Shown here: piece by piece, positions 3,715 to 21,859 of the stretch | Layout: each line of letters begins with the position of its first letter | Position numbering within the stretch: the stretch's first letter is position 1 | Source of the DNA: a virus | UHGV virus genome: UHGV-0149790 | Reading direction: 5' to 3' (one strand) | DNA: 21,903 nt | Made by a program: the position numbers and the translations under genes | The notes under the pieces: generated by a model | What the model was told of the DNA's origin: nothing | The model's input: only the letters and a program-made list of their open reading frames with translations | Database searches by the model: none

Positions 3715-3716
3715 CT

Positions 3717-4921: not shown

Positions 4922-4965
4922 TTAACCGGCGCGTGACCTGCGCCAGTAACCAAGAGGAAAGACCA

Positions 4966-7164: not shown

Positions 7165-7730
7165 TGACTTCCACCACTGCAATTGCTATCGCAGCCGATA
7201 TGTCAAAACTCCAGGCACTACTGGAAAACGAAGACGGTGCTGGTCTGTCTCCTGAAATGATCGCCGACACAATGGAAGGTCTTGAGTTACAACTCGGCGA
7301 TAAACTGGATGCCGTTTTCGTCCACGTTCGCAATCTGGAAGGCCTGGCAAAAACCTGCGATGAAGAGGCCAAACGCCTTGCCGCCCGCAAAAAATCATTC
7401 GAAGGTAAGATCACGAACCTGAAGAAATATGTTCTCCAGTGTCTACTGGCCGCCGGTCAGGATACGGTTAAAACCGCCAAAAATACCTTTACCGCACGTA
7501 AGGGAGCTATAAACGTCGTGATCGATAATGATGAATTACTGCCGGATGAATTAGTGACAGTTCAGACGTTAGTCACTCCGGACAAGAAAGCCATCAAGGA
7601 AGCGATTGAATCAGCACAGGCAGCGGCGGCCCAGATTACCGCTGACGGCGGAGAGATACCGGAAGAACTGTTAAACCCAGTGCCGGGCGCTCACCTTGAG
7701 ATTGGCGAACGTTCGCTGCAGGTGCGCTGA
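7164..7730 (+). CDS. Gam-like / Gp157-family protein (candidate DNA-end-binding accessory)
   Basis: 188 aa; start overlaps the upstream stop (TAATG); N-terminal coiled-coil plus a C-terminal pattern resembling Mu Gam; family call from recall, moderate confidence. Confidence 0.5.
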   Translation: MTSTTAIAIAADMSKLQALLENEDGAGLSPEMIADTMEGLELQLGDKLDAVFVHVRNLEGLAKTCDEEAKRLAARKKSFEGKITNLKKYVLQCLLAAGQDTVKTAKNTFTARKGAINVVIDNDELLPDELVTVQTLVTPDKKAIKEAIESAQAAAAQITADGGEIPEELLNPVPGAHLEIGERSLQVR

Positions 7731-7731
7731 T

Positions 7732-7917
7732 ATGCTGAAACTCACACTGAAACGAGGCGACGCGCTTCACGTCGTTTTTCCGGACGGTACTAACGGGATA
7801 ATCGAAGCCTGCGCGCGTTGTGAACTGGCTATGCATTTTCCGCGCAGTGCCAAAATCACCCGCGAAAATGGCGCGTTCCGGAATAAACCAAACCTGATTA
7901 AGCCTAATCAGAAATAA
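7732..7917 (+). CDS. small beta-rich protein (61 aa), CsrA-like or AbrB/MazE-like N-terminus
   Basis: ATG at 7732, 1 nt after the upstream stop; MLKLTLKRGDALHVV...FPRSAKITREN matches CsrA (MLILTRRVGETL...APKEVSVHREE) in length and pattern, but also resembles swapped-hairpin proteins. Confidence 0.5.
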   Translation: MLKLTLKRGDALHVVFPDGTNGIIEACARCELAMHFPRSAKITRENGAFRNKPNLIKPNQK

Positions 7918-7966
7918 CTCGCAACTGTCGTTAGCATTGTGATCTACCTATGAACCGGAGATCACA

Positions 7967-8191
7967 ATGCTACGTTGGCAACCAGGCACACTTTTACTTT
8001 CAGATTTCGATATCAAAATTGGCAGGCTATCAGCCAGCGTTAGAAAGAGGACTCTGACCCAGTCCGATATCCAACGCGCTTGCGATACGGCAGACAACGC
8101 GATAGCCGGCATGCTGAGGAAAGACCATGAGACACGATCACGACATCATCACCAGAGAGGAAATGATCGAACTGACGGGGACCCCACTTAA
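7967..8191 (+). CDS. hypothetical small basic protein
   Basis: 74-aa ORF whose ATG sits in the 3' arm of an 11-bp perfect inverted repeat; overlaps the excisionase-like ORF in another frame; weak support. Confidence 0.3.
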   Translation: MLRWQPGTLLLSDFDIKIGRLSASVRKRTLTQSDIQRACDTADNAIAGMLRKDHETRSRHHHQRGNDRTDGDPT

Positions 8192-8372
8192 ATCGAGGCA
8201 GTGTGAAGCGCTACGTCGGGCCGGTGTCTTTTTCATGGAAAGGGCAGACGGCCATCCTAAAACGACGTGGGGCCATTTCCTGAACCCGATTAAATACCGC
8301 AACCAGCAGGAAGAGACGGTGCGGGAGGAAGAACCAGACTTCGGAGCTATCTTTAATGGCCGGAAAACGTAA
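8127..8372 (+). CDS. excisionase-like DNA-binding protein
   Basis: 81-aa ORF immediately upstream of and overlapping the integrase start; the ITREEMIELTG...ALRRAGVFF segment fits small winged-helix excisionases; positional support. Confidence 0.5.
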   Translation: MRHDHDIITREEMIELTGTPLKSRQCEALRRAGVFFMERADGHPKTTWGHFLNPIKYRNQQEETVREEEPDFGAIFNGRKT

Positions 8373-9372
8373 GAACCCCGCTGATAACTGGATGCCGCCC
8401 CGCGTGTATCGCGGTAAGGCGGCGTATGAATTCAGGAATAAAGATAACAAGGCTATCAGGCTATGTGCGCTCTCCGAGCCTCAATCAGCTGTATGGCTGG
8501 CATATGAAAAAGCCATGGGAGAAGAAGTCGAGCGCAAGACGTTTCAGGCTCTGGCCGATCAATTCATGTCTTCCCCTGACTGGCAGGATTTAGCGGCAGA
8601 AACCCGAAAAGACTACACGAAATACGCAGGCAAAGTGTTGCCGGTGTTCGGGAAGGTTAACCCCGATAAAATTAAACCGGAACACATCCGGCGCTATATG
8701 GATCAGCGTGGCATGGCCAGTAAAACGCAGGCCAACCGGGAAAAGAGTTTTCTTTCTCGGGTATTCCGCTGGGGTTATGAGCGGGGTTACGTCCAGCATA
8801 ATCCCTGTCAGGGCGTTAAGAAGTTCAAAGAGGCAGCCCGGGAGCGTTACATCACCGACGAAGAATACAAAGCGGTTTACGATGTTGCTCCAGACGTAGT
8901 TCGCGCCACCATGGAAATCGCTTATTTGTGTCTGGCCAGACAAAGCGATGTGCTGGCTTTGACTGAAGACCAGATACGCGAAACCGGGATCTTTATCCGC
9001 CAGGGGAAAACAGGCGTGAAGCAAATCAAAGCATGGTCGCCACGCCTGCGCGCCGCTGTCGCCCTCGCCCGTTCCCTGCCGTTAAAGCCGGGTATCCGTA
9101 GCCTGTTTGTCATTCACCAGACCAGCGGCAGCAAATACACCCGTGACGGTTTTAATTCACGCTGGCGCGACGCGAAAATCGCAGCGCAGGAAAAGAACCC
9201 ACACCTGCAGATAGATTTCACTTTCCACGATCTGAAAGCGAAAGGTGTCTCTGATCTGGAAGGAAGCCTCGAGGAGAAACAGGCGATTTCAGGCCATAAG
9301 AATTCGAGACAAACGGCGATTTACGACAGGAAAACTAAAATTGTGCCGGTTGTTGGTGGTCAGAAAAAATGA
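8356..9372 (+). CDS. int: tyrosine site-specific integrase (lambda Int family)
   Basis: 338 aa; C-terminal catalytic region with HDLKAKGVSD, GHKNSRQTAIY and the terminal Tyr; 3' end faces the att core 120 bp away. Confidence 0.9.
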   Translation: MAGKRKNPADNWMPPRVYRGKAAYEFRNKDNKAIRLCALSEPQSAVWLAYEKAMGEEVERKTFQALADQFMSSPDWQDLAAETRKDYTKYAGKVLPVFGKVNPDKIKPEHIRRYMDQRGMASKTQANREKSFLSRVFRWGYERGYVQHNPCQGVKKFKEAARERYITDEEYKAVYDVAPDVVRATMEIAYLCLARQSDVLALTEDQIRETGIFIRQGKTGVKQIKAWSPRLRAAVALARSLPLKPGIRSLFVIHQTSGSKYTRDGFNSRWRDAKIAAQEKNPHLQIDFTFHDLKAKGVSDLEGSLEEKQAISGHKNSRQTAIYDRKTKIVPVVGGQKK

Positions 9373-9433
9373 ATCGCTATGCGTTCGTTGAAAAATCATC
9401 TTCGGACGCATCTTCGGAAAGGAGAGTTTCAGA

Positions 9434-9458
9434 TACAAAAAAACCACCCGTAGGTGGT
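9434..9458 (-). terminator. intrinsic terminator between int and the att core, strongest on the minus strand
   Basis: AACCACC-cgta-GGTGGTT stem (9441-9458) preceded by AAAAAAA (9434-9440), a T7 run after the hairpin on the minus strand. Confidence 0.55.
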
Positions 9459-9492
9459 TTCACGACACTGCTTATTGCTTTGATTATTCTGC

Positions 9493-9548
9493 TTTATCCC
9501 AATGGTACCCGGAGCGGGACTTGAACCCGCACAGCGCGAACGCCGAGG
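9493..9548 (-). other. att core: 56-nt 3'-terminal fragment of tRNA-Leu (anticodon UAA), not an intact tRNA gene
   Basis: Minus strand reads ATTTAAAATCCCTCGGCGTTCGCGCTGTGCGGGTTCAAGTCCCGCTCCGGGTACCA: anticodon loop, long variable arm, T-arm GGTTCAAGTCC, acceptor 3' strand and CCA. The 5' half of the tRNA is absent (sequence diverges at 9549). Confidence 0.75.
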
Positions 9549-9696
9549 GATTTTAAATTGGTGGTGATTATTCTAAATATCAAATAGATATGAAAAAAAT
9601 CCGAACATACGCTAATAAACTAGCATCATGAAAACAATAAGTTACAGCAATGTTTTAGACTATCTTCTGACGCTTATCATACCTCAAATTCAATAT

Positions 9697-9936
9697 TTAT
9701 TCAGTCGCGCGGTACCACGATTGCCAGCGGTAGATATTCGTACGTAACTCCCGCACACACTCTGCTGACTGTGTATCCGCCAGCAGATCAGCGTCGCTAT
9801 CTGCGCCAGCGTTACTTATCTTGCACGGTCGGTTCATCAAATCCGGGGATGGCGTTGGCCGCGTCGATTGCTCGTTGGCGCAGCTGCACAGCAGCAGGAT
9901 CAAACTGGCACACAGTACGATTCGGGTCATTGACAT
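9697..9936 (-). CDS. Rz1-like o-spanin (outer-membrane lipoprotein), overlapping the Rz gene
   Basis: Signal-like N-terminus MSMTRIVLCASLILLLCSCANE with Cys near the cleavage region, Pro-rich mature part; out-of-frame overlap with Rz and extends past it. Confidence 0.5.
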   Translation of the reverse strand: MSMTRIVLCASLILLLCSCANEQSTRPTPSPDLMNRPCKISNAGADSDADLLADTQSAECVRELRTNIYRWQSWYRATE

Positions 9937-10171
9937 ATTTCACCACATCACGATAAACGGTACGGTAAATCACTTTGGCTTCGGCGTTCGCCGTCGCTGC
10001 TTTCTGCTCACCAGCGGCAACTGCCTTTTCCTGCTTCGGTAGCCTTTGTTTAGCCTGGCTGTTTACTTGCTCTGAATGTGCGTACCAGCCTTTCAGATAC
10101 CCCGCCCAGTAAATCCCGGCGCATACCGCCAGCACGCCACCAACAATCACCAGTTTGGTTTTTCCGTTCAT
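9812..10171 (-). CDS. Rz-like i-spanin
   Basis: N-terminal TM segment (KLVIVGGVLAVCAGIYWAGYL) then a charged, Ala/Gln-rich periplasmic domain; ATG at 10171 overlaps the endolysin stop (ATGA). Confidence 0.7.
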   Translation of the reverse strand: MNGKTKLVIVGGVLAVCAGIYWAGYLKGWYAHSEQVNSQAKQRLPKQEKAVAAGEQKAATANAEAKVIYRTVYRDVVKYVNDPNRTVCQFDPAAVQLRQRAIDAANAIPGFDEPTVQDK

Positions 10172-10704
10172 TCGTACAGCCCCCAGCACGTCAAAGCGCT
10201 TTCCTGATCGCGGCGGTCAACCTGCCCGTAGCAGCCATTCTTCTGGCCTTTGGTCAGTCGGCAATCCCGGCCTCCGTCGAACACCCATCGCCGGATCTCC
10301 GCGCATGCACCTTTACGGTCGCCTGCGTTCAGCTTGCGATAGAACGTTGAGGGGAAGCATTTACCCGGCCCGATGTTGTACGGGCAGAATGAGGCTATGC
10401 CGACCTTCTGCGGCGGCGTCAAAGAAACGAGCACATTCTTTTCTACCCAGGCAAGCGCCTTATCACGCTCAATGGCGTTTACCTTCCTGCACTGTTCCTC
10501 AGTTGCTCTTTGGCCCTTAATGACACGCTTGCCATCTATAACGGTTACTCCGTGGCACAATGACCACACACCGCCGGGGTCAACAACGGCCACCAGCGCG
10601 TTACCTTCTTTTTCGCTGATAAACTGATCGAACAGTATCGGTGCAGATGCACCGGCGGCCAGAAGCGCCAGCATAGCGGCGCTGAACTTAGCTTTGTTGC
10701 TCAT
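10168..10704 (-). CDS. SAR endolysin (T4-type lysozyme fold, phage 21 R-like)
   Basis: Start at 10704 ([25 protein letters not shown] = signal-anchor-release segment); catalytic-region pattern E...D...T and C-terminal [14 protein letters not shown]...ALTCWG resemble recalled R21; overlaps the holin 3' end. Confidence 0.85.
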
Positions 10705-10918
10705 AGTCCTGTGCCTTCCGCCGGTCGTCTTTGATTTTGAAGTACAAATTAGTGAGGTAGGTAAGCAGCCCAAAAACAATACTGGCCAGTACGCCAATAG
10801 CCGCCCACTGGCTGGGGCTTACCTTATCGAGAAGTTGCAGCAGCCAGTAGCTCCCGCTGACAGTGGATGTGATGTACGACGTGCCAGCCGCCACATCCGG
10901 TAAATTCTTCATTCGCAT
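10688..10918 (-). CDS. pinholin (class II holin, phage 21 S-like) with dual-start motif
   Basis: 76 aa; ...[43 protein letters not shown] matches recalled S21; starts Met-Arg-Met, the classic antiholin/holin dual start. Confidence 0.85.
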
Positions 10919-10975
10919 GCCTTACCCCCATGGGGATCACTATGTGGAGTGATGCGAGGGTAAGGCGAAGCTAAG

Positions 10976-10989
10976 GTCAGAATCCTGAC
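10976..10989. repeat. 14-bp palindrome GTCAGAATCCTGAC (copy 1 of 2)
   Basis: Perfect inverted repeat 57 nt upstream of the holin start on the minus strand, at the edge of an AT-rich island. Confidence 0.6.
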
Positions 10990-11000
10990 TAAATGAAATT

Positions 11001-11270
11001 CTATATTTGGAGTTTTCTTTTAAGTGATTCCTCTGCCTCTTCAAGAGGGCTTCCTGACCCAGAATACACAAAAGAATGGGTAAGCTCCCCACAGGAAAGA
11101 CAACCATCAATGCTAACTTTAAATGAAACAGTCGCTGTTCCATTATTTAGCGATATTAACGATACAGCCTGGTATTCAACTTCAATCGATGTATCTTCTG
11201 ATGGCATCCATACACCTAGCGTTGGATATGCTATAGATTTTCCTATGGTCTGCGTCACTCTGAAAGTCAT
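11001..11270 (-). CDS. hypothetical protein in an AT-rich island between tailspike and holin
   Basis: ATG at 11270 with GAGG 5 nt upstream, overlapping the tailspike stop; 89 aa, beta-rich; a plus-strand ORF (10993..11283) covers the same DNA, so strand is uncertain. Confidence 0.35.
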   Translation of the reverse strand: MTFRVTQTIGKSIAYPTLGVWMPSEDTSIEVEYQAVSLISLNNGTATVSFKVSIDGCLSCGELTHSFVYSGSGSPLEEAEESLKRKLQI

Positions 11271-11277
11271 ATTAGCC

Positions 11278-13797
11278 TCATGAATTAAAAGGAACAACAT
11301 AATCAAAAGTACACTGGAGAGTAAAATCAAAAGTACCAGCTGCTTGAGAATATATTTCTTGGGCTGACGATTTTATAATCGTCATTTGATTTGTCCCTGC
11401 AGGAACAAGCGGCATAACAAAAACTCCTGTAGCCGTGCTTAGAATTATGCTTCCTTTAGACCCACCCTCCTGTATTGAGGCGGCTGTAAAAGGAAGACCA
11501 CTAATGACTATGGCTCCCGCAGTACTAACCAGTAAAGAGGTTGATCTGACTCTTATATCGCAACGAACAACATCACCAAACCTACGGTAAATTCCAGTAA
11601 TGGATGATGGCGTTACGCTTGCCCCGCCAATTGTAATAGTTGGTGTGAATGAGCCATAAAGATACTTAAACTGAGCAGCATTACCACCGGGAAAAGCTAT
11701 TGGCGGCATATAGGCATCATTTCGATTAAAAACATACTTATCGGATAAATTTGTTCCGTTTAACTCCTGAAGACCGAAAAGACGATAGTTTGAATTATCT
11801 CCAAGCTTTCTTTGAGCAACTATATTCTCACCGGCACCGATTCTTGTGCCGTTAAATTCATTAACTGGGGCAGCCTGAACCGCGCCACCTTTTACAATAT
11901 CAAGGGCGAAAATATTTCCTCTTGTTGCCATCGCTGGAAATGTTGAAAGAGATGGTTCGTAGGGATCAACATTATTAACATTAAATCTATTTCCAGCAAC
12001 ATCACCAAGGCCATACTTGATGATTCCTACCCTTTCCAGTATAAGAGTCCTTATTTTACTGTTACCAACATATGATTTAAATCCGTCAACGAATTGAGCA
12101 GAGTGGTAGAATGGCGTTCTTGGAGACCACAGCACTTTAGCCTCACCAATATTGCAATGCAATATCTCCCTTCCCGGAAGTGAAATAATAGTTCTTGCGC
12201 GCCCAGCTATACCTCTATAGGTATCAACTGGGTAAACCCCATTCTGCTGATTATTTGACAACCGACCACCGCTGGCCGTAGGCAAGCAGTTTGCAGACTT
12301 GAAAACATACGTATCAAACCAAGTGTCAAGAGCGGCATATGCTGGATGTGTCCAGTCCATGCCGGTATCACCATAATAATGAAACTTGTCTACATGGTAC
12401 GAATCATTCCATCCCGCCCGATGAATATCTGATGCCGGGTACGGCGGAAGGTACTGAGACGCGTATGCATGATTTCTCGTTAGCCAGCGCCCGCCAAAAA
12501 CAGGGCCTGTAATATTATACCAATATAATGTCAGCCCAGTTTGCGCCAGAGAATCAGATCCTTGATAACAAGCAGGAATGGCACACCCTGAGTACATCAT
12601 ATTATTTTCTACACAGCGGTTTACAGTCCCGTCTACCCATTGCCCAATAAAGAATCCGCTAATCCTGAAATCAGAAAGGTGATACTTTATGTATTGATCT
12701 GGTCCGCTGTCACCTGCGATGTATAGACCCATGGAAGATGTATGATCCCATGGTCCCGCAGTTTTTGAAAAATTACCAATAATCCCACAATTGTGTTGGT
12801 TTTCACCAACAATCATTGAATCATCATAAACACGCAGTGCTGCTTTTGCCTTAACTGGTATTTCAGGAGCAATATTTGAATCACCGTTCCCTATCCACCC
12901 TGGGTATACAGTCCCATCGTCGAATGGCAAATTAAACTCTATCGGTGAAGATATGCACGGATACATTTTAGTTAAATATACCGGAAGGTTATTAGCTTTT
13001 CCGTAATCTATAGCTGCCTGTAGAAATTTAGTTGCATCAGCAGTGATGCCGTGAATATATCTTTCACCATTAATCCTTATCATTTCAGGGGTTACGTATT
13101 TTATTGCATCTTCAACGGTGCCTCCAGTAAGAACCCCTATATGCCCGCTACCTGTCGGTTTGGCATACTCAATCATTACATCTGCTGCACTTCCACTCGA
13201 AGGCAATACCATCAATGGATTGCCATTATTATCCATTGCAACGATTTTATTTTTTCGTTCTGCAATGGAAGGTAACGGTGTGATGCTAGACTCCGGAACG
13301 CGTAGAGTACGAGCTAGATTAATTTTTCCATTTTCAATTACAAATTTTTTAGTAGCTGCATCCTGATCGTTAACTGGATCGGCCAGATTTGCTATCCGGT
13401 AGCCGTTAGCGTTGAAAGGTCCACCGCCGAACAGCGGGCGACTTAGGGCCACTCCGAGATAAATAAACGCGCGCTGAGTAGCCATCCAGAGACGGTCAAA
13501 ATCTTTGTTAACTGTATCGGCCAGCAGGTCGCCGTTGTCCTGGTAATCAGTGAGCCTGTAAGTCGGCGTTACACGTTCAAAAATGACTGTAGCGCCATTG
13601 GCCGGCGCGGTCAGAAAAGTAACTTCGCCACCGCCAGTATTACCCACACCAGACACTGTATAGCCGGACGTTACTTCGTTGCCGTTGATTGTGACCTGAA
13701 TATCGCTGGCGCTGATCAGGTAAAACTCATAGGCAAAGACAGTCGTCAGCCCGTTGGCGGTATAGATGTTATAGGGTGTCTGGTTCGGTACCGACAT
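11278..13797 (-). CDS. tailspike / tail fibre with T7 gp17-like N-terminal adaptor domain and probable beta-helix depolymerase body
   Basis: 839 aa; N-terminal approx. 150 aa (...NANGYRIANLADPVNDQDAATKKFV) parallel recalled T7 gp17 (...RGRRIVNLANAVDDRDAVPFGQL); Gly/Asn/Ser/Thr-rich repetitive body typical of polysaccharide depolymerases. Confidence 0.8.
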   Translation of the reverse strand: MSVPNQTPYNIYTANGLTTVFAYEFYLISASDIQVTINGNEVTSGYTVSGVGNTGGGEVTFLTAPANGATVIFERVTPTYRLTDYQDNGDLLADTVNKDFDRLWMATQRAFIYLGVALSRPLFGGGPFNANGYRIANLADPVNDQDAATKKFVIENGKINLARTLRVPESSITPLPSIAERKNKIVAMDNNGNPLMVLPSSGSAADVMIEYAKPTGSGHIGVLTGGTVEDAIKYVTPEMIRINGERYIHGITADATKFLQAAIDYGKANNLPVYLTKMYPCISSPIEFNLPFDDGTVYPGWIGNGDSNIAPEIPVKAKAALRVYDDSMIVGENQHNCGIIGNFSKTAGPWDHTSSMGLYIAGDSGPDQYIKYHLSDFRISGFFIGQWVDGTVNRCVENNMMYSGCAIPACYQGSDSLAQTGLTLYWYNITGPVFGGRWLTRNHAYASQYLPPYPASDIHRAGWNDSYHVDKFHYYGDTGMDWTHPAYAALDTWFDTYVFKSANCLPTASGGRLSNNQQNGVYPVDTYRGIAGRARTIISLPGREILHCNIGEAKVLWSPRTPFYHSAQFVDGFKSYVGNSKIRTLILERVGIIKYGLGDVAGNRFNVNNVDPYEPSLSTFPAMATRGNIFALDIVKGGAVQAAPVNEFNGTRIGAGENIVAQRKLGDNSNYRLFGLQELNGTNLSDKYVFNRNDAYMPPIAFPGGNAAQFKYLYGSFTPTITIGGASVTPSSITGIYRRFGDVVRCDIRVRSTSLLVSTAGAIVISGLPFTAASIQEGGSKGSIILSTATGVFVMPLVPAGTNQMTIIKSSAQEIYSQAAGTFDFTLQCTFDYVVPFNS

Positions 13798-13814
13798 ACG
13801 AGGAACTCCGGCGG

Positions 13815-15425
13815 CTAGTAATCTACGGCGACCATGTGATCGCCATCATTTGGTTGCCAATGTTCCCGCGCCTGTGCGGTCGGAATCCCGACCAATTTAC
13901 CAATGCGCACTGGTGTTGAGCTGATTGCGCCAGAGCCAGAGTCGATAAAGTCATCTGGCTGATTAGTCAGCGCCGGGTTAAAGTCGCGCATCTGGTCATA
14001 CATTGGGCCGTCGAGCACGTCGGTATGCGCCCAGAGGAAGCGCGACGACAGCGGCGCTTCGAATGCATCGAGGATGCGCTTTTGTTTATTGGTCACGCTG
14101 AATTCTTCCCGTACGCCGCAGCCGGTACCCTTTAGTGCCTGAATCAGCAATTTCCCGGCAAAGCTGCCCGGGCCGTTCACCTCGACGCAGACCAGCGGGA
14201 TCTGGTATTTAAGCACCAGCTCTTTAATCTGCATCACCTGACCGCCGGTGATTTTGTCGTTGTCGTCGAATTCCGCCAGTTCGCCCGTAAGCCCCTGGCA
14301 AACATGCCAGTACAGATGCCCGCGTGCGTCGGTGAAAATCAGAGAGAACGCCGAGGCGTCGGCCTTAACTTTGCCGGTGGCCACATCCCACCAGGCAACA
14401 GCACCAACAATTTGCGTCTGGCCAAGCCACATCGAGCAGGAGCGGTTCGCGTACCGGATTTCAGGCTGTACGTTGTATTCGCGTATGCGGTCGGGATCGA
14501 GACGAACCTCGCCAACCGGTTTACTGTGCAGCTGGTACTGGCTGTCCCATTCGTTAATTGTGCGAGTCTCGCGACGGCGCTTTGTCATTTCCTCCGGAGT
14601 GAACCTTTCTGGCCATTCACAATCGGCGTAACAGTCAACCGTGGTGCCGGGAGCCTCGGCAAACTCGATACCGTCATCGTTAAGACGATAATCAACACCT
14701 TCAACGAGCAGTCGCGCGCCAATGTGAATACCGACGAAAACATATTCCGGCCGGAACGGTAACGAGTAACGGCTCGCGGTGGCCTGTTTTTCCTCGATTC
14801 TAAATTCTTTACCGAATAGTTTGATGGTCAGACAGTCGGCGCCCATAGATTCAACCTCATCGTAAAGGCTATCGTGGGTATGCGGCGTGCCGATAAACAG
14901 CTTTCGCCCGCCGGGGACAAGAATGTGTGTCTGTTCACCGAGACGATAACGCAGCTTTTCCCGCGCCTCTGGCGTCTGGATATTGCGGGGTACTTCTACG
15001 TCATCGTTCTGGCATTCATCAGCGCGGGCCGAGGTAACGTTAGAGAGGATCCCCTTTGCGTACATGCTGCCGTTACGCATATCCAGAGAGCCGTTAACCC
15101 ACCACTGTTCAACGGTTCCCTGTCCGTCCGGTAGCATGCCTTTGGTCAGTGGGTGATTGCGTAAAACGTTCTGCGTATCGCGGCTGGTTTTGTACGCGGT
15201 GCCGTCAGCTTCAGACTGGTGAAGAATGCGGTACTGGCGGTTCTGGTAATATCGCCATGCGTTATACACCGCCAGAATGGTAGATTTACCAAAGCCACGA
15301 AAACAGCGAAGCACCGCGAGATCCCCGCGGTGTTCCAACCAGTGGCAGGCTCGATAATGGCAGTCGGGAACCTCCCACCCCATCCGCTCCGCCCATATGA
15401 TGAAAAAGGCGACGAATGAAATCAT
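13815..15425 (-). CDS. terminase large subunit, T7 gp19 type
   Basis: 536 aa; CFRGFGKSTI (cf. T7 AFRGIGKSFI) and TSARADECQNDDVEVPRNIQTPEAREKL (cf. T7 [27 protein letters not shown]); start overlaps the upstream stop (ATGA). Confidence 0.9.
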   Translation of the reverse strand: MISFVAFFIIWAERMGWEVPDCHYRACHWLEHRGDLAVLRCFRGFGKSTILAVYNAWRYYQNRQYRILHQSEADGTAYKTSRDTQNVLRNHPLTKGMLPDGQGTVEQWWVNGSLDMRNGSMYAKGILSNVTSARADECQNDDVEVPRNIQTPEAREKLRYRLGEQTHILVPGGRKLFIGTPHTHDSLYDEVESMGADCLTIKLFGKEFRIEEKQATASRYSLPFRPEYVFVGIHIGARLLVEGVDYRLNDDGIEFAEAPGTTVDCYADCEWPERFTPEEMTKRRRETRTINEWDSQYQLHSKPVGEVRLDPDRIREYNVQPEIRYANRSCSMWLGQTQIVGAVAWWDVATGKVKADASAFSLIFTDARGHLYWHVCQGLTGELAEFDDNDKITGGQVMQIKELVLKYQIPLVCVEVNGPGSFAGKLLIQALKGTGCGVREEFSVTNKQKRILDAFEAPLSSRFLWAHTDVLDGPMYDQMRDFNPALTNQPDDFIDSGSGAISSTPVRIGKLVGIPTAQAREHWQPNDGDHMVAVDY

Positions 15426-15763
15426 TTTTTCCGCTGTTGTATGCGTTCGATAACTTCCTGTGCTGCCCGTTCAGCCGCAGATACCTGTTGCCCCAGGCGG
15501 AATGCTTCATCGTCCGGATCCTCGCCGGGTTTAGGCGTCCCCCCGCGCGTATGCATGCCAATCAGCGAATGGACTTTTACCAGCAGCGTCAGCGATGCGG
15601 CCGCGTTCTTCTTATGCCAGTACCGATCACCGCGTTCCTGTTTAGTGTGCTTTGTGATTTCCTTCCCTGCCCCCGGCCAGTTGTCCGGATCGGCTTCTTC
15701 CAGAACTACATCGGTGAGCTTATCGCTAAGAGCAGTAAGGCGAGTTTTGTAATCTGAATGCAT
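15422..15763 (-). CDS. putative terminase small subunit (positional inference)
   Basis: 113-aa ORF translationally coupled to the large terminase gene; no sequence signature recognised. Confidence 0.4.
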   Translation of the reverse strand: MHSDYKTRLTALSDKLTDVVLEEADPDNWPGAGKEITKHTKQERGDRYWHKKNAAASLTLLVKVHSLIGMHTRGGTPKPGEDPDDEAFRLGQQVSAAERAAQEVIERIQQRKK

Positions 15764-15811
15764 AAAAAAGCCCCGTGGTTATCCATAGAGCTATGATGTA
15801 TTCTTTTTGAG

Positions 15812-15825
15812 GTCGGAATCCTGAC
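15812..15825. repeat. 14-bp near-palindrome GTCGGAATCCTGAC (copy 2 of 2)
   Basis: One mismatch to the 10976-10989 copy, with shared flanks GGTC.GAATCCTGACTA; 48 nt upstream of the small-terminase start on the minus strand and 20 nt upstream of the plus-strand moron ORF. Confidence 0.6.
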
Positions 15826-15845
15826 TATCACAAGGAGTAAATAGA

Positions 15846-16364
15846 ATGAAGATATTAATTCCATTGTTGCTAATCTTTCACTTTGCAGCATTCGCATCAA
15901 CCGATTTAGTTGATGACTCTAAATATATCGTTCCTATATCCGGACCAGGAATACAGATTACCAATCCATATACCGACTATACGGTCATTAACGGTATCGA
16001 CACTGGTAAAAAAATTGAGATCCATGTATCGGTATTACACTTGCGAACCTATAAAGAAAACGCAGATTTTAGTGAAACTAATACTCACTATGTGGAAGGA
16101 AGTAAAACCATATCTAGTTACAATGCCAATGTTTACACAGACGATTTTATAAAATTTACATCAGAAGACGCTAAAAATTCAACATTGAAAAATTTAAGGG
16201 ATTTGTATTGTGCACCAGATGGATTTTACCCAGTGTCATCTCAAGAGCGGCTATTCTACGAAACCCGAAAAGAAAATAAAAAAATAATGATCAATTACTA
16301 CAGTGATTCAGGGAAAACCCTCATGTTTGGGTTTGGGGTTTCCCCCGAATCATGTAAGTCGTAA
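15846..16364 (+). CDS. secreted or periplasmic protein of unknown function encoded by an AT-rich moron, opposite in orientation to the late operon
   Basis: 172 aa; AAGGAG RBS 9 nt upstream; signal peptide MKILIPLLLIFHFAAFAS; markedly AT-rich, wedged between two minus-strand late genes. Confidence 0.7.
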   Translation: MKILIPLLLIFHFAAFASTDLVDDSKYIVPISGPGIQITNPYTDYTVINGIDTGKKIEIHVSVLHLRTYKENADFSETNTHYVEGSKTISSYNANVYTDDFIKFTSEDAKNSTLKNLRDLYCAPDGFYPVSSQERLFYETRKENKKIMINYYSDSGKTLMFGFGVSPESCKS

Positions 16365-16367
16365 TAG

Positions 16368-19262
16368 CTATCGCATTCCCGGATCAACCTGATTAAGCAG
16401 TGGGGCAATCCAGAACAGGTTATTACCCGGCAGTAACGTACGCACACTATGCAAAACACGATCGCCGGCATCGCCGTTAAGCACGCCGGCGGTCACATCA
16501 GTAACGGTATCCAGCAGGCCGAAGGTTGGCCCTAGCGCAGAACCGATAAAGCCACGGCTGGCGTAACGGGACTGCGTACCGGTACCGAGCAATGGCCCGA
16601 GCCCTATCATCCCACCGGATGCCTTTTCCGCCATGTTGTTGTATTCCATCAGCGGGCCGAGAATACCAGAGCGGTCGATGCCCTCGATTACCATTTTCTG
16701 CGGAGTCAAATCAACCTCCCGGCCGTTGGCCGCCTGCTTAAGCGCATAGGTCAGTGAACCAAGGCCAATCTGGAAGGCGGTACCGTAATAGAACTGCGCG
16801 GTACCTTCCTGCAGGCCGCCGAGCGTCGCGCGGTTATAGGATGCCGTAGCAAAAGACTTAAACTGGAATACGGTTTTTCCCAACGGGGTGCTGGCCCACA
16901 ACGGCGTGTCACCGATACCCGGCGTGATAACGGTATTGTTTACATCCTTGAGCACAGCAGATTGCAGAAGTCCAGCGGCGTACTGGTCATCCCATTTTTC
17001 GAAATTGCCGATATGCCAGCCCTGAATAACTTCACCGTGCCTCTGAAATTCTCGCTGGATGCGTTCGGCCATATTCTCGTTGATGCCGAGTTTTGCCAGG
17101 CGCTTCGCAGGGAACGCGCCGGACAGAATACCGTCGGACGTGATCATGCCATTCACCGATTTGTTCATATCGTCAAAGTGGCCCATCATGGTCAACTTGC
17201 CGAACACATCAGTAATACGTTCCATGCCAGCTTCTGCAGCTGTCGTACGAGAAGAGCTATCGACCAGATCCCCCATAGTACGCGCGCGGGTATGCAGTAT
17301 GGTTTCCAGCCCAACGGCCATTTTCTTCTGCTCCGCCCGGCTGGCGAGATAAGCCGGAGAGCGGGTGATCAGTGCGCCATATCCACGCATGGTATTGCTG
17401 AAGCCGTTAACCATCATGCCGCGCGCCAGATCCGGGATAGCGGATACCGTCATGCCGCCGAGTTTCGTTACAAAGTTGGCGCTACGCAGGAAAGCACCAG
17501 CGCGAACGAAAAATGATGATGGGTCATCCGGCATACCGTAGGTACCGACGAGGCGATCGCGAAGCGCCAGAATATCGCGCAGGTCGGCTTCGCGCGCCTT
17601 CGCCAGCTTTTCCTGTTCTGCTGGGCGTAAACGCATCAGCGCGTCGTATTCGTCCTGGATGGCGGCGAGCTGCGAATCCAGCGACTTGTTGCCGAACGTA
17701 CGGGTTAATTCGATCTCCGCTGAGGCTTCGCGGATATGACGCTGCAGGACGTAATTTGCATCACTCTCCAGATAATCTTTCATCAGGCGATCGGGGACGC
17801 TCAACGTTCGCGATTTGGTGCTACCTGGTGCTTTCACCATGAAGACGTTGGCGAACTCCTGCGGAATTTTGGCCCCGACGATACGGTTAATCGTGGTATC
17901 GGCGGCGATTTCGGCATCTTCGCGGGACATGGTTTTTTCACCACGTGACCACCAGTCAACCAGCATATTGCGGAATTTATCGCGCTCGCTAACAATTTTC
18001 CCTACCTTGTACACGCGAGGGAAATAGCTGGTCTGCCCCATCGCTTTCAGTTCGGCATCCGGCGGAAGCAAACCCAGCTCCTGCTGTGCCGTCTTCACGC
18101 GGTTAATGACTGTGCGCATTGCCTGCGCTGCTTCCTGCACTTTCGCATTAACGTGCACGTCGCCGTTACGCAGCGCCTCGCCGACCTGTTCACGGAAAGC
18201 CGTATGACCCAGATCGCCGCCTTCAGCTTTATACTGAGTGTATGCCTGCTTATTCGCAGTAACGACGGCCGCCTCTTCGCGGCGCCAACCACGTACGCGC
18301 GTCTCGGCAGCTACCGGAGTTTCGATACCGCGCAGGTTTCCTTCCAGCGTGAAGTTATTCTCCGCTAGCTCCAGCGCTGTCCGGCGCGCTTCTTTTGACG
18401 GGGATTCCATCAGTCGGGTGATCGGCGTGAGATAGCTACCGGCTTTTTTAGCCAGCTTGCCAAGCGGGCCGCCAGACACCGGCGTGAGGTCTTCCAGTGT
18501 AGCTTCGCGAATACGCATGGCGCCGACGCTGCCACCGTTCGGTAAAGTATCCGCCAGGGCGTCTGCTGCGTTGTTAATCGTTGGCGAGACGTTCATATTA
18601 TCGAGCGCCTCTGCCACTTCACGCGTGGCCGCGTTTCTTACCGCTGGAGTGATCATCGCGCCAGCAGTGGCGAATACACCGCTTAGAAGTGCGCCGGCTG
18701 TGATGTGTGCTGCGCTCTCCCTGGCGGTTCTGGTGTACTGCTCGTTATTGAGCGCTACCTCGCTAAGTGCGGTACCGGCGGCGCCAATAGCAACCTGAGA
18801 ACCAATACGCGCAGCCAGGCTTCCCTGCGCACCGGGAATAAACATTGATGCTACTGTGATAGGGTCAAGCATGCCAGACGCAATATTCGCTAAAGTTCCG
18901 CCCCATCCTGCCTCAGCAGTAACGCGCCTATCTTCATTTTCTTCATCAATCTGGTTTTTAATCCAGGCGGTTTCCTCTGGGGATTTTGAATCAGCGAAGG
19001 CAGATCCCCATTGTTCGTACCCCTTTAGTTCGTTTTTATCAGAATAAGGGTTATACCCCTCCGCTGTCTCGAACTGTTTAGCCGGGCGGAACACTCCGGC
19101 CAGCAGGTTATTCTGACGAAAAGCGGCATCCCATACAGACGGTTGCTGTTGCAGCGGCTCCGGGTTAGTTCCTTCAGGCAGAGAGACATCAAAACCAGTT
19201 GGCGCCTGAAGAGCATTATCCATTACGCTCGGTGGAACATCAGATTGCGGATAGATCGGCAT
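16368..19262 (-). CDS. large virion structural protein (internal core / ejection-protein-like)
   Basis: 964 aa, Gly/Ala-rich, coupled to the upstream virion protein gene (1-nt overlap); located where T7/SP6-like phages encode internal virion proteins; no specific motif recognised. Confidence 0.55.
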   Translation of the reverse strand: MPIYPQSDVPPSVMDNALQAPTGFDVSLPEGTNPEPLQQQPSVWDAAFRQNNLLAGVFRPAKQFETAEGYNPYSDKNELKGYEQWGSAFADSKSPEETAWIKNQIDEENEDRRVTAEAGWGGTLANIASGMLDPITVASMFIPGAQGSLAARIGSQVAIGAAGTALSEVALNNEQYTRTARESAAHITAGALLSGVFATAGAMITPAVRNAATREVAEALDNMNVSPTINNAADALADTLPNGGSVGAMRIREATLEDLTPVSGGPLGKLAKKAGSYLTPITRLMESPSKEARRTALELAENNFTLEGNLRGIETPVAAETRVRGWRREEAAVVTANKQAYTQYKAEGGDLGHTAFREQVGEALRNGDVHVNAKVQEAAQAMRTVINRVKTAQQELGLLPPDAELKAMGQTSYFPRVYKVGKIVSERDKFRNMLVDWWSRGEKTMSREDAEIAADTTINRIVGAKIPQEFANVFMVKAPGSTKSRTLSVPDRLMKDYLESDANYVLQRHIREASAEIELTRTFGNKSLDSQLAAIQDEYDALMRLRPAEQEKLAKAREADLRDILALRDRLVGTYGMPDDPSSFFVRAGAFLRSANFVTKLGGMTVSAIPDLARGMMVNGFSNTMRGYGALITRSPAYLASRAEQKKMAVGLETILHTRARTMGDLVDSSSRTTAAEAGMERITDVFGKLTMMGHFDDMNKSVNGMITSDGILSGAFPAKRLAKLGINENMAERIQREFQRHGEVIQGWHIGNFEKWDDQYAAGLLQSAVLKDVNNTVITPGIGDTPLWASTPLGKTVFQFKSFATASYNRATLGGLQEGTAQFYYGTAFQIGLGSLTYALKQAANGREVDLTPQKMVIEGIDRSGILGPLMEYNNMAEKASGGMIGLGPLLGTGTQSRYASRGFIGSALGPTFGLLDTVTDVTAGVLNGDAGDRVLHSVRTLLPGNNLFWIAPLLNQVDPGMR

Positions 19263-21859
19263 TATTCATTGCTCCATGAAAAGTAGTTTTTAACCCGGTT
19301 CATACGGTCATCGTGCAAACGCTGATATTGCTCATCGAGCGCTCGGTGTTTTTCCTTAAAGCCTCGAATATCTTTCCCGCGTGATAATTCCTCTTCGCCT
19401 TGCTGTTCCCGCTCCTGCTGCATTTTTTTATACGGTTCCCAGTCTTCCAGCGACGGTTTCCAGCGCATCGGACGCCTGAATTTATCGTAATATGGCTGTA
19501 CGCTCTCGTTACCATCTTTATCTTTCATGCGAACCATAATGGCGTAGTCACCGTTACGCGTGGTTAAAACGTCAGGGGTAATTTCCAGTTCACCACCGAT
19601 TTGGGATTCAGGTGTATTTGATGTAATAACGGGCGCTGAACCTGATGTAATACCCAGTTGGGTCGGGCTGGTTTCAAATTTTTCTCCACGTTCGCCATAG
19701 GTCAGACGCTCTTTCTCTTCTTTCCACTGCGCAGCCTGCCAACCAGAAGGCCCGTAGTTATAAAGTGCTTCAGGCGCGTATTTCATAAACTGGGCGCTGC
19801 CGTTCACATCGCTAAGACTCCAGGTACGCGCGATCTGGGTATTGGTCATCTTTTTGGCAACATCGGCATTACCACCCGAGTTGCGATAATTGATGTCATA
19901 AAGCGACTGGTAGTCGTTACGGAAATTGACGGCGTTAAGATTCTGGTCATCTGCTGCAGGACCGCCAAAGCTGTACCACGGTTTCATGCTACTGACTGCG
20001 GAATCCATCGCGCTGGCACGCTCTTTTTTGTATTCCTTCGTGCTCTGCGTAGAAGACAATTGTGATTTAAGGGCATCAGTCTGGTTATAGGTAACGTTCT
20101 GCGCCTGCTTCACTGCTTCGTCTGACGCCATGCCGGAATCGGTAAGTTGTTTAACGGTCAGGTAAAAGCTTTGCATGTCCTTTGGCATATCGCCCACAGA
20201 GGCAGGATCTGTTTCGTACAGCGCGTTAAATAATGTCGAGCCCTGCTTAACCACGCCGGGGCTGCTGGAACGGGCGATCGCATTCAGTTGCGATGTAACT
20301 TGCGATGGGATAATGCCGGTCTGGTTAACCTGCTGCACGATGGCGTCGTGAGTGGTGGCGTCGTTAATGCGGAAGTTAAGCGCCGATGGCGTATTGTCCG
20401 CCGCCCTCTGCATAGATTTATTGCTCGGGTCGAGTTTCTCGCCGGAGAGCAGCGCATCGTTAAAGCGGGCGGAGTCGCGCTGCGCCTGAATATTGGCGTT
20501 GCTCTTCTGCACCAGCGCGCTAAGTTTGCCGTGTGCATCAAGTTTTAGCGCAAAATCGGGATCGTTTGCCTGCGGCTTCACCTTCGCCAGTTCGGCCTGC
20601 TGTTCTGCCGGGGTGGCGTACTGAATAGCCTGGAAGGTTCTGGCGTTATCAATCGCGATATCCAGCTGCTTGACCGCTGTTTGCCCCTGCTCACCATACG
20701 CAAACAAAATGGTGGAGGCGTTCGGCATAGCATCCGGCACCTCGCCGTTATACAGCTGCGCCATTGTATTATTGAGAATCGGGTCAATCTGCTGGCGCAG
20801 CGCCGTACGCTGCTGCCGGATCTGCGCTTCGGCGATATTGTCGATTTTGTTTACTGCTACCGGGTCGAGACCGGTTTTATTTTTGTTGTAACGGGACAAC
20901 CAACCGCGCGTTTCTGCGGGCAGCTGCTTAACGAAATCCGCCATCGAGATTTCGCCTTTGCGCGGGTCGCCCACTTTGGCGATCAGTTTATCGACGTTAC
21001 CCATCCCCCAGTTATACGCGGCCCCGGCCAGTGGTTCTGACTGGTATTTTTTACTGAGCTGCCCGGCATAATCACGCGCCAGCTGCGCATGCTGCACAGG
21101 ATCGTCCGGGTTGTATTCCACGCCACGTTTAGCCGCCAGTTCTTTCCCTGTGTCCGGCATCAACTGAAATTCACCCTGCGCGCCAGCGGGCGATGTAACA
21201 AGACTACCATCCGCATTGCGGTGCTTACCACCGGACTCCACCAGGCCAACGGCGCGCATATCGAGTTCGCCGGTGCTGCTGTTAATCAACGTAAAATCGC
21301 CATTCAGCCAGCCAGTGGGATTGGTTACCGCGTAGTTCTGCGCGCGCTGCTCCAGCGCTTTTTGGTTCGCTTCTGATACCGCCGCGTCGATGCGCTCCTG
21401 CGGCCAGCCACGCGCCTGGCCATACATCTCGATCGAGTGTTTACGGGCGCTACGTATCAGCCCTGCCTGCATCGGATTATCGTATGCGCTGGCCTCTTGT
21501 TCGACGGAAGTGGTCACCGTCGCATTAAGCTGCTGCCGCTGGGCCTCATCCGTCTGTGCACGCTCGAAACCGCTGTAGGTACTTGTCCGGCGTACCTGCC
21601 CTGCTTTCCACTGCGCATCAAAATAGTTTAACTGGTTGGGCGGTACGCGCTTCCGCGCTTCCTCGTAATCGCCAGCGTCGGCCTTATCCATATCGGTTAC
21701 CACACCGGACGATTTAAAGCCCTGACGAGTGACCGTGGCGCCCGTCTCCGGGTTTTCCCAGCGGTCATTAGATTTAGCTTCCAGATCAGTCAGAATCGCC
21801 TGCGTGGCTGCCACATCGGCTTTATCCTGCTCATGCTGTACTTGTTCTGGATCATGCAC
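19262..21859 (-). CDS. internal virion protein with lytic transglycosylase (SLT) domain
   Basis: 865 aa; SLT signature ESGGKHRNADG...GAQGEFQLMPDTG...AYNWGMGNV about 200-300 aa from the N-terminus; probable GTG start at 21859, two codons after an in-frame TGA. Confidence 0.75.
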   Translation of the reverse strand: MHDPEQVQHEQDKADVAATQAILTDLEAKSNDRWENPETGATVTRQGFKSSGVVTDMDKADAGDYEEARKRVPPNQLNYFDAQWKAGQVRRTSTYSGFERAQTDEAQRQQLNATVTTSVEQEASAYDNPMQAGLIRSARKHSIEMYGQARGWPQERIDAAVSEANQKALEQRAQNYAVTNPTGWLNGDFTLINSSTGELDMRAVGLVESGGKHRNADGSLVTSPAGAQGEFQLMPDTGKELAAKRGVEYNPDDPVQHAQLARDYAGQLSKKYQSEPLAGAAYNWGMGNVDKLIAKVGDPRKGEISMADFVKQLPAETRGWLSRYNKNKTGLDPVAVNKIDNIAEAQIRQQRTALRQQIDPILNNTMAQLYNGEVPDAMPNASTILFAYGEQGQTAVKQLDIAIDNARTFQAIQYATPAEQQAELAKVKPQANDPDFALKLDAHGKLSALVQKSNANIQAQRDSARFNDALLSGEKLDPSNKSMQRAADNTPSALNFRINDATTHDAIVQQVNQTGIIPSQVTSQLNAIARSSSPGVVKQGSTLFNALYETDPASVGDMPKDMQSFYLTVKQLTDSGMASDEAVKQAQNVTYNQTDALKSQLSSTQSTKEYKKERASAMDSAVSSMKPWYSFGGPAADDQNLNAVNFRNDYQSLYDINYRNSGGNADVAKKMTNTQIARTWSLSDVNGSAQFMKYAPEALYNYGPSGWQAAQWKEEKERLTYGERGEKFETSPTQLGITSGSAPVITSNTPESQIGGELEITPDVLTTRNGDYAIMVRMKDKDGNESVQPYYDKFRRPMRWKPSLEDWEPYKKMQQEREQQGEEELSRGKDIRGFKEKHRALDEQYQRLHDDRMNRVKNYFSWSNE

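What the first reader, a model, noticed from the sequence alone, without database searches (positions are those of the whole stretch)
10976..15825. A shared 14-17-bp palindromic element upstream of two late transcription units
GGTCAGAATCCTGACTA (10975-10991) and GGTCGGAATCCTGACTA (15811-15827) lie 57 and 48 nt upstream of the holin and small-terminase starts on the minus strand. The DNA between each element and its start also aligns loosely (CATCA...CATAG...GAT...CC.GGGG). Each element borders an AT-rich insertion. This may be a late-promoter or regulator-binding element, or the scar at which morons are inserted.
Basis: seen in the sequence. Interest (0 to 1): 0.55.

Follow-up and report, generated by a model that had tools for sequence, protein, structure and literature searches.

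The report
Shared box of phage late promoters
The repeated 17-bp palindrome is very probably the activator-binding half of a family-specific late promoter, sitting where a normal promoter has its -35 element, and it occurs three times in this window and five times in the whole temperate phage.

Summary
Both 17-mers lie at the stated coordinates, and a third copy (13878-13894) sits inside the 3' end of the terminase large subunit (TerL) gene, upstream of the tail-spike gene. In late-gene sense the box reads T-R-G-T-C-R-G-G-A-W-W-C-Y-G-A-C-C. Across 134 non-identical copies from related prophages it is always in the same orientation. After 12 bp (rarely 11) comes a weak -10-type hexamer nAnnAT: A and T at those two positions in 130/134 copies, against at most 20/134 at any other offset. 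There is no -35 hexamer, and the dyad axis falls exactly where one would be centred. Complete relatives carry five copies: before the first late gene, capsid, small terminase, tail spike and holin. The in-gene copy shows no synonymous change and is identical in a Massilia prophage whose TerL is only 52% identical. The most likely reading is an activator-dependent sigma-70 late promoter. The likely activator is a 91-98-aa helix-turn-helix protein encoded just upstream of the first late gene (same strand, 36/36 loci), in the slot lambda Q occupies. It lies outside the window. Promoter activity and protein binding are inferred, not shown. The "moron scar" reading is not needed, although variable cargo does abut the boxes exactly.

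The parts
10975..10991 (-). Late-promoter box upstream of holin (sense TAGTCAGGATTCTGACC)
   Evidence: same position in 30/30 holin upstream regions of relatives
10957..10962 (-). -10-like hexamer TACCCT, 12 bp after the box; predicted transcription start near 10950 (inferred)
10916..10966 (-). Holin leader structure. The 5' arm CCUUACCCUC overlaps the hexamer and pairs with the ribosome-binding sequence GGGGGUAAGG.
   Evidence: -25.2 kcal/mol, z -5.1; 9 pairs kept in 22-24 of 24 sequences, wobble changes only
10688..10918 (-). Holin gene, first gene of the lysis block (endolysin 10168-10797, Rz-like spanin 9812-10189)
13878..13894 (-). Late-promoter box inside the 3' end of TerL (sense TGGTCGGGATTCCGACC), upstream of the tail spike
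   Evidence: 40 unique homologous copies with no synonymous change in GTC GGG ATT CCG ACC; identical in Massilia L142, TerL 52% identical
13860..13865 (-). -10-like hexamer GAACAT, 12 bp after the box; predicted start near 13853 (inferred)
11278..13797 (-). Tail-spike gene. The N-terminal part (13344-13797) is conserved; the remainder is not shared with relatives.
15811..15827 (-). Late-promoter box upstream of the 113-aa small-terminase-position gene (sense TAGTCAGGATTCCGACC)
   Evidence: 43 of 44 upstream regions of this gene carry the box
15793..15798 (-). -10-like hexamer CATCAT, 12 bp after the box; predicted start near 15786 (inferred)
15764..15792 (-). Terminator-like hairpin plus U6 that ends on the start codon. 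Its 5' arm begins directly after the hexamer.
   Evidence: -10.2 kcal/mol, z -3.3; outer 6 pairs kept in 23-24 of 24 sequences
13815..15763 (-). 113-aa gene (15422-15763, small-terminase position, PHROG of unknown function) and TerL (13815-15425)
   Evidence: the Piluca homologue is annotated as small terminase
15828..16368 (.). Variable cargo slot directly upstream of the box. It holds a + strand gene, 15846-16364 (172 aa, signal-peptide-like N terminus, phrog_8033).
10992..13343 (.). Variable AT-rich segment directly upstream of the holin box: orf109 (11001-11330, -) plus the distal part of the tail spike

Best explanation
Each box is the upstream half of an activator-dependent late promoter used by host sigma-70 RNA polymerase. 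The box has two inverted RGTCRG half-sites, 10 bp centre to centre, around a variable GA(W)(W/C) centre. Twelve bp downstream lies a weak -10 hexamer (nAnnAT). There is no -35 hexamer: the dyad axis of the box coincides with the centre of the position a -35 hexamer would occupy at 17-bp spacing (about -32.5; the box spans about -41 to -25). A dimeric phage protein binds the box and recruits or stabilises polymerase, so that five late units fire together: first late genes/portal/scaffold, capsid to internal virion proteins, terminase, tail spike, and lysis. Three of these units are in the window. The best candidate for the protein is the 91-98-aa XRE-fold helix-turn-helix protein encoded just upstream of the first late gene, in the slot lambda Q occupies. 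It lies outside the window but is present in the same phage (L131 16446-16742). SHOWN: sequence, orientation, spacing, distribution, constraint beyond coding, synteny. INFERRED: promoter activity, start sites, identity and sign of the regulator. Secondary inference (weaker): at the terminase and holin units the 5' arm of a terminator or ribosome-site-masking hairpin lies upstream of the predicted start. Read-through RNA from upstream cargo would then be terminated or untranslatable, while RNA made from the box promoter is not.
For: (1) Three copies in the window against 0.03 expected. Complete prophages L004 and L005 have five each, all in late sense and none in early regions. L131, 100% identical to window 1-9558, supplies the two copies outside the window. 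(2) Among 134 non-identical copies in phage context, A at +14 together with T at +18 occurs in 130. The best other offset gives 20, and the mirror side of the palindrome at most 28/133. Of 25 distinct hexamers, 22 are nAnnnT and the other 3 are the same hexamers shifted by 1 bp. (3) No canonical sigma-70 promoter is called at these sites. The bases at -35 spacing are GGATTC or GATTCC. (4) Gene-anchored extraction that does not presuppose the box finds it upstream of the small-terminase-position gene in all but one case (a 40%-identical relative), and upstream of all holin, capsid and first-late genes in the fetched loci. (5) In TerL the box has a major-allele frequency of 0.993 against 0.83-0.86 in the flanks, with no synonymous variation. 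A Massilia prophage with 52% TerL identity has the identical 17-mer followed by 12 nt and GAAGAT. (6) Terminator-like hairpins with T-runs lie directly upstream of most capsid boxes, so a new start is needed there. A hairpin plus U6 abuts the start codon at 15763, so that mRNA must start inside or after the hairpin. (7) The HTH gene lies upstream of the first late gene, on the same strand, in 36/36 loci, in both lambdoid-type and DNA-polymerase-type early modules. (8) Its AlphaFold model (pLDDT 75) matches XRE/Cro-type DNA-binding domains, including R-M controller proteins that activate from palindromes near -35. (9) Yersinia phage YeP5, with a 46%-identical HTH, has a genome-wide variant box ..GGAAACCGAAC at three sites with the same 12-bp spacing to nAnnnT.
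Against: No transcript, footprint or reporter data were available, so promoter activity is inferred from sequence alone. A dimer centred on the -35 position is also the classic geometry of a repressor. The Foldseek matches are weak (E 0.02-0.1) and include many repressors. The holin hexamer TACCCT could be conserved for its pairing with the ribosome-binding site rather than as a -10. The HTH-to-box link rests on synteny and co-occurrence among related phages. HTH proteins only 28-41% identical keep the same box, so no specificity co-variation was demonstrated. Piluca and TPWB-05 have a distant HTH homologue but a non-palindromic box. The masking idea fails for the first-late unit: ribosome-site accessibility is 0.46 against 0.48.
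Confidence: 0.7

Rival explanations
1. The box is an operator: a phage repressor (possibly the same HTH protein) sits on the -35 region and keeps late promoters off, rather than activating them.
For: The dyad is centred on the -35 position. XRE-fold matches include P22 c2, CapH, HipB and SinR. PHROG 16553 is labelled 'transcriptional repressor'.
Against: Without the box there is no -35 and only a weak -10 (nAnnAT, position 1 unconserved), so there is little to repress. The HTH gene lies at the end of the early operon, next to the first late gene, so it would not be expressed in the lysogen. The box is shared by phages with unrelated immunity repressors.
Confidence: 0.1
2. The box marks the sites where cargo genes (morons) are inserted or exchanged: a recombination site, or a scar of such events.
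For: Homology blocks between the window and six relatives end exactly at the boxes. Variable AT-rich DNA abuts them. Relatives carry acyltransferase, Acb2/Tad1-like, Tad2-like and other genes in the same slots.
Against: The box is present without any insertion (L005 small-terminase copy follows the stop codon of the upstream gene; L004 holin copy overlaps the tail-spike stop) and inside TerL. Cargo is flanked by a box on one side only. No dedicated recombinase was seen. This reading does not explain the fixed downstream hexamer. Block ends at promoters are expected if only DNA upstream of a promoter tolerates insertion.
Confidence: 0.07
3. The box is a loading site for a Q-like antiterminator. 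The protein bound at the box engages polymerase paused at the -10-like hexamer and lets it read through the hairpin-U-run that follows.
For: A box, a -10-like element and a terminator-like hairpin occur in that order before the small-terminase-position gene. The HTH gene occupies the position of Q.
Against: No constitutive promoter lies upstream of any box. Most capsid boxes lie immediately downstream of a terminator-like hairpin, where polymerase would already be released. The capsid, tail-spike and first-late units have no terminator after the hexamer. There is no Pfam match to Q families.
Confidence: 0.06
4. The box acts as an RNA or single-stranded DNA hairpin (processing site, stabiliser or terminator) rather than as duplex DNA.
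For: Perfect copies fold as 6-bp hairpins (-9.5 to -11.2 kcal/mol). Window copies differ by A-T, G-C and G.U at one pair on the + strand.
Against: All four combinations at that pair occur (G-C, A/C, A-T, G/T), so neither strand keeps pairing. The small-terminase copy folds at -2.1 kcal/mol in sense. YeP5 has the same G.A-mismatched arm at three sites. There is no U-tract and no Rfam match. This reading does not explain the one-sided hexamer at fixed distance.
Confidence: 0.05

Closest known systems
Phage Mu late promoters (Plys, PI, PP, Pmom) and activator C
   Same: Several late promoters per genome have a recognisable -10 but no typical -35. Each carries a 16-bp dyad-symmetric element overlapping the -35 region, bound by a small phage helix-turn-helix dimer working with host sigma-70 polymerase (PMC2582627).
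   Different: The Mu dyad is centred at -43.5; here it is about -32.5, one helical turn closer. The box sequence is unrelated. The candidate protein has an XRE-like fold and no Mor/C family match. Nothing here has been tested experimentally.
Restriction-modification controller (C) proteins and C-boxes (C.PvuII, C.AhdI, C.Esp1396I)
   Same: These are 80-100-aa XRE-fold proteins and are among the Foldseek hits. Their palindromic half-sites of GACT/AGTC type lie at and around the -35 hexamer of a promoter they activate (PMC2175313).
   Different: C-boxes are two palindromes, GACT-N3-AGTC-N4-GACT-N3-AGTC, giving activation then repression of the protein's own operon. Here there is one palindrome, RGTCRG-N4-CYGACC, in five copies before late genes. 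No box precedes the HTH gene.
Lambda CII at pRE/pI/paQ
   Same: An activator whose two half-sites are 10 bp apart and straddle the -35 position of a promoter with a poor -35 (half-site pattern TTGC-N6-TTGC: PMC2629481; the straddling geometry is from my own background knowledge).
   Different: CII uses direct repeats bound by a tetramer and controls lysogeny promoters, not late genes. Profile similarity to CII is not significant (E 0.6-0.75).
Lambda Q and the single late promoter PR'
   Same: The regulator gene sits at the end of the early operon, next to the first late promoter. In APSE, a phage with the same early module as L005/YeP4, that slot holds Q (PMC8579659).
   Different: Q is an antiterminator acting at one promoter for the whole late operon. 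Here five boxes head separate units, some separated by terminator-like hairpins.
T4 middle promoters (MotA box at -30 with AsiA)
   Same: A sigma-70 -10 element combined with a phage-specific box that replaces the -35 element (my own background knowledge; also discussed in PMC2175313).
   Different: The MotA box is asymmetric and requires the co-activator AsiA. No homologues were seen here.

Membership tests
Activator-dependent sigma-70 promoter (class overlapping -35) | -10-type hexamer with A at position 2 and T at position 6, at fixed distance from the activator site | tested here: met
   130/134 copies have A(+14) and T(+18); the next best offset gives 20/134.
Activator-dependent sigma-70 promoter (class overlapping -35) | Poor or absent -35 hexamer | tested here: met
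   The bases at 16-18 bp spacing are GATTCC, GGATTC or GGGATT (0-2 of 6 matches). No consensus promoter is called at these sites.
Activator-dependent sigma-70 promoter (class overlapping -35) | Primary transcript 5' ends downstream of the -10, dependent on the activator | not testable with these tools
   No transcript data are available; this needs 5' mapping and reporter assays.
Mor/C family late activation (phage Mu) | Mor/C-family protein, and a dyad centred at -43.5 | tested here: not met
   No Mor/C Pfam match in the candidate or neighbouring genes. The fold is XRE-like. The dyad is about 11 bp closer to the -10.
R-M controller protein / C-box | Double palindrome GACT-N3-AGTC-N4-GACT-N3-AGTC upstream of the regulator's own gene | tested here: not met
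   There is a single palindrome with an N4 centre and inverted half-site order. No box lies upstream of the HTH gene.
R-M controller protein / C-box | Small XRE-fold DNA-binding protein | tested here: inconclusive
   Model pLDDT is 75. C.BclI, C.EcoT38IS, C.Kpn2I and C.Esp1396I are among the hits, but E is only 0.05-0.25.
Lambda-type Q antitermination | Q-family protein and one constitutive promoter with a Q-binding element followed by a terminator | tested here: not met
   No Q Pfam match. There are five boxes, none with an upstream -35/-10 pair.
Structured RNA / intrinsic terminator | Stem kept by compensatory changes on one strand, and a U-tract for a terminator | tested here: not met
   Both kinds of half-compensated pair occur. 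The YeP5 arms are mismatched at three sites. There is no U-tract and no Rfam hit.
Moron / cargo junction | The element is present only where foreign DNA is inserted | tested here: not met
   Boxes occur without insertions and inside TerL, although insertions do abut the boxes.

The most novel reading that the evidence does not exclude
This would be a previously undescribed late-gene control system of a widespread group of temperate podovirus prophages (Enterobacterales, and at least one Burkholderiales genome). A roughly 95-aa XRE-fold activator takes the place of Q and drives five promoters through a palindromic box whose dyad sits exactly on the -35 position. Several of these promoters are built inside a terminator or a hairpin that masks the ribosome-binding site, with the 5' arm of the hairpin lying upstream of the transcription start. 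Each late unit, including holin, would then be insulated from read-through coming from the lysogen-expressed cargo genes that accumulate immediately upstream of every box.
Probability: 0.35. Interest if true: 0.65.

Novelty: new variant of a known kind. Interest (0 to 1): 0.5.

Why it matters
If correct, this gives a simple sequence rule (box + 12 bp + nAnnAT) that annotates all late transcription units of a common family of prophages found in Escherichia, Klebsiella, Raoultella, Serratia, Enterobacter, Citrobacter and Yersinia. It names a candidate master late activator that could be deleted or supplied to control induction. It explains why morons and anti-defence genes pile up at a few fixed slots. 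It also offers a compact, probably orthogonal activator/promoter pair with a geometry (dyad on the -35 position) that is uncommon among characterised phage late systems.

Tried and rejected
- **Near-identity search of 10000-17000 against phage records:** only an endolysin fragment matched, so there is no close sequenced phage.
- **Literature search for the box as an exact string:** nothing relevant was found.
- **Rfam and tRNA scans of the window:** both were negative.
- **Consensus sigma-70 scan:** no site at the boxes, consistent with the missing -35.
- **Hairpin reading:** rejected after gene-anchored collection of variants and the YeP5 variant.
- **Antisense function:** a promoter for the + strand cargo gene, or an ECF-type GGAAT motif. 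Only 18 nt separate the box from that gene's ATG, and the mirror side has no hexamer signal.
- **Sigma-54, FadR/GntR-type, CRP, FNR and LexA consensus comparisons by eye:** spacing or key bases do not fit. These comparisons rest on my own knowledge, not on a tool.
- **The window's CII-like/YdaT gene as the regulator:** rejected because L005 and YeP5 lack it yet have the boxes.
- **Specificity co-variation between the HTH recognition helix and the box:** not demonstrable, because highly diverged HTH proteins keep the same box.
- **Sequence-profile search of solved structures:** no significant hit.
- **Defence-system models on the cargo proteins:** no hit.
- **Masking of the ribosome-binding site at the first-late unit:** no effect.
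not positional once anchored on the box.
Full report
**What is in the window.**
The window belongs to a temperate podovirus.
- Late genes run on the - strand: internal virion proteins (21859..16368), a 113-aa gene in the small-terminase position (15763..15422), TerL (15425..13815), tail spike (13797..11278), a small ORF (11330..11001), holin (10918..10688), endolysin and an Rz-like spanin.
- An integrase and lambdoid early genes occupy 311-9372.
- Window 1-9558 is 100% identical to a prophage on an ENA metagenome contig (L131). That locus supplies the part of the phage missing from the window.

**The observation.**
- Allowing three mismatches gives three matches against 0.03 expected.
- The third copy is GGTCGGAATCCCGACCA at 13878-13894. 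It lies inside the 3' end of TerL, 81 nt before the tail-spike start.
- Both reported copies abut AT-rich DNA.

**Anatomy, from comparison.**
I used two complete E. coli prophages (L004 and L005, which have different early modules), a remnant (L002), about 120 viral-contig stretches carrying the 16-mer, species-representative genomes, and Yersinia phage YeP5.
- Read in late-gene sense, the box is T-R-G-T-C-R-G-G-A-W-W-C-Y-G-A-C-C. It has two inverted RGTCRG half-sites 10 bp apart around a variable centre (GATT, GAAT, GATC or GAAA).
- It is always in the same orientation relative to the late genes.
- It occupies five conserved positions: before the first late gene, before the capsid gene, before the 113-aa/TerL pair, inside TerL before the tail spike, and before holin.
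- Extraction anchored on gene starts, which does not presuppose the box, finds it upstream of essentially every such gene in the fetched loci.
- No copies occur in early regions.

**The decisive feature.**
Twelve bp (rarely 11) after the box there is a hexamer with A at position 2 and T at position 6.
- Examples are CATCAT (small-terminase position), TACCCT (holin), GAACAT/GAAGAT (tail spike), AACAAT (capsid) and CACACT/CACAAT (first late).
- In 134 non-identical phage-context copies, A(+14) and T(+18) co-occur 130 times. The next best offset gives 20, and the mirror side of the palindrome at most 28/133.
- Of 25 distinct hexamers, 22 fit. The three exceptions are the same hexamers displaced by one base.
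- This is the signature of a sigma-70 -10 element, a weak one because position 1 is unconserved.
- Nothing resembling TTGACA lies at 16-18 bp spacing, and the consensus scan calls no promoter there.
- With the hexamer taken as -12..-7, the box spans about -41 to -25. Its dyad axis coincides with the centre of the position a -35 hexamer would occupy.

**Constraint beyond coding.**
- Among 40 unique TerL 3' ends, the five codons inside the box (GTC GGG ATT CCG ACC) show no synonymous change, while flanking codons vary freely. Major-allele frequency is 0.993 in the box against 0.83-0.86 in the flanks.
- A Massilia prophage whose TerL is only 52% identical has the identical 17-mer followed by 12 nt and GAAGAT.

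**Duplex DNA site, not a hairpin.**
- At the variable arm pair, all four combinations occur (G-C, A/C, A-T, G/T), so pairing is not maintained on either strand.
- The window's small-terminase copy folds at only -2.1 kcal/mol in sense.
- YeP5 carries ..GGAAACCGAAC at three sites. This introduces the same arm mismatch genome-wide while keeping the 12-bp spacing to CACACT, TAGCCT and GACCAT.
- This is the pattern of a protein-recognised sequence evolving in concert. There is no U-tract and no Rfam match.

**Context supports separate transcription units.**
- Most capsid boxes are immediately preceded by a hairpin followed by a T-run, as expected for an intrinsic terminator.
- Before the 113-aa gene, a conserved hairpin plus U6 ends on the start codon, and its 5' arm starts right after the hexamer.
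- In the holin leader, a strong structure (-25.2 kcal/mol, z -5.1) pairs CCUUACCCUC, which overlaps the hexamer, with the ribosome-binding sequence.
- A transcript starting about 7 nt after the hexamer lacks these 5' arms. The predicted unpaired probability of the ribosome site rises from 0.10 to 0.42 for the terminase unit and from 0.20 to 0.43 for holin. It does not change for the first-late unit.
- I therefore propose, tentatively, that these units are insulated against read-through and depend on their own box promoter.

**Candidate regulator (outside the window).**
- A 91-98-aa protein is encoded upstream of the first late gene, on the same strand, in 36/36 loci.
- It sits in the slot lambda Q occupies, in both lambdoid-type and DNA-polymerase-type early modules. 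The two versions are 60% identical.
- In APSE, which shares the latter early module, that slot holds Q.
- All database homologues are unnamed.
- Pfam gives only sub-threshold helix-turn-helix hits, and PHROG 16553 carries an automatic 'repressor' label.
- An AlphaFold model (pLDDT 75) resembles XRE/Cro-type domains. Matches include P22 c2, CapH, HipB, SinR and several restriction-modification controller proteins, at E 0.02-0.25.
- The link between this protein and the box is inferred from synteny and co-occurrence only.

**Cargo.**
- Homology between the window and six relatives stops exactly at the boxes (9700-10990/1, 13344-15825/31, then from 16369). This leaves 10992-13343 and 15828-16368 as variable segments.
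- Relatives carry acyltransferases, Acb2/Tad1-like, Tad2-like and other genes in the equivalent slots.
- The box also exists where there is no insertion, so it is not a scar. Cargo appears to be tolerated, or exchanged, just upstream of each promoter.

**Comparison with known systems.**
- The logic matches Mu C-dependent late promoters: a -10, no -35, and a 16-bp dyad overlapping -35 (PMC2582627). The dyad here is one helical turn closer to the -10, and the candidate protein is not of the Mor/C family.
- The geometry recalls lambda CII half-sites and, loosely, C-protein/C-box systems (PMC2175313). The defining C-box layout and autoregulation are not met.
- No paper in the searchable library prints the box sequence.

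**Verdict.**
The promoter/regulator-site reading is well supported computationally (about 0.7), the identity of the activator less so (about 0.5), and the scar reading is not supported. I file this as a new variant of a known kind: activator-dependent phage late promoters.

Noticed in passing
window 15764-15792 (- strand): A terminator-like hairpin plus U6 ends directly on the start codon of the 113-aa gene before TerL, with the ribosome-binding G-run in its 3' arm. The outer stem is conserved and the inner stem differs between lineages. Its 5' arm starts right after the putative -10 hexamer.
   Followed up: partly
window 10916-10966 (- strand): The holin leader forms a strong structure (-25.2 kcal/mol, z -5.1) that pairs CCUUACCCUC with the ribosome-binding sequence. 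This may gate holin translation on read-through RNA. Only wobble-type variation is seen across 24 relatives.
   Followed up: partly
window 15846-16364 (+ strand): An AT-rich (GC 0.31-0.39) opposite-strand gene encodes a 172-aa protein with a signal-peptide-like N terminus (phrog_8033, unknown function). Its ATG is only 18 nt from the box, and its own promoter was not identified.
   Followed up: no
window 11001-13343: orf109 (phrog_7836) and the distal three-quarters of the tail-spike gene have no homology to relatives, whereas the first ~150 codons do. This is the pattern of receptor-binding cassette exchange, bounded by 13344 and the holin box.
   Followed up: partly
L130 19859-20119; L132 19943-20835; L133 19699-20702; L131 20169-20468: The slot between the scaffold gene and the capsid box holds different small genes in near-identical prophages. 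These include Acb2/Tad1-hairpin, Tad2-like and gp49_66 family proteins (anti-defence candidates).
   Followed up: no
L127 (Alcaligenes phage Piluca) 1-66, 4830-4915, 19470-19524, 24199-24260; L128 (Acinetobacter phage TPWB-05), equivalent sites: More distant relatives lack the palindrome. They have a different, non-palindromic box CACCCAACAAACC, followed about 16 nt later by a hexamer and a hairpin-U-run abutting the ATG. They also encode a distant homologue of the HTH protein with a different recognition helix.
   Followed up: partly
window 9425-9558: This stretch matches both ends of the related prophage in L004, and identity to L131 ends at 9558. It is therefore the attachment-site core, and the window represents the circular or excised arrangement, with lysis genes next to the integrase. 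No complete tRNA lies in the window.
   Followed up: partly
L005 about 23080-23125 (and other L005-type loci): A second palindrome, TGTTAAA-N9-TTTAACA, lies just upstream of the first-late box in prophages of the L005 type. Its function is unknown.
   Followed up: no
L102, upstream of its small-terminase-position gene (40% identical): This is the one such gene without the canonical box upstream. Its upstream region contains CTGGTGGAAACCAGG, possibly a diverged box.
   Followed up: no
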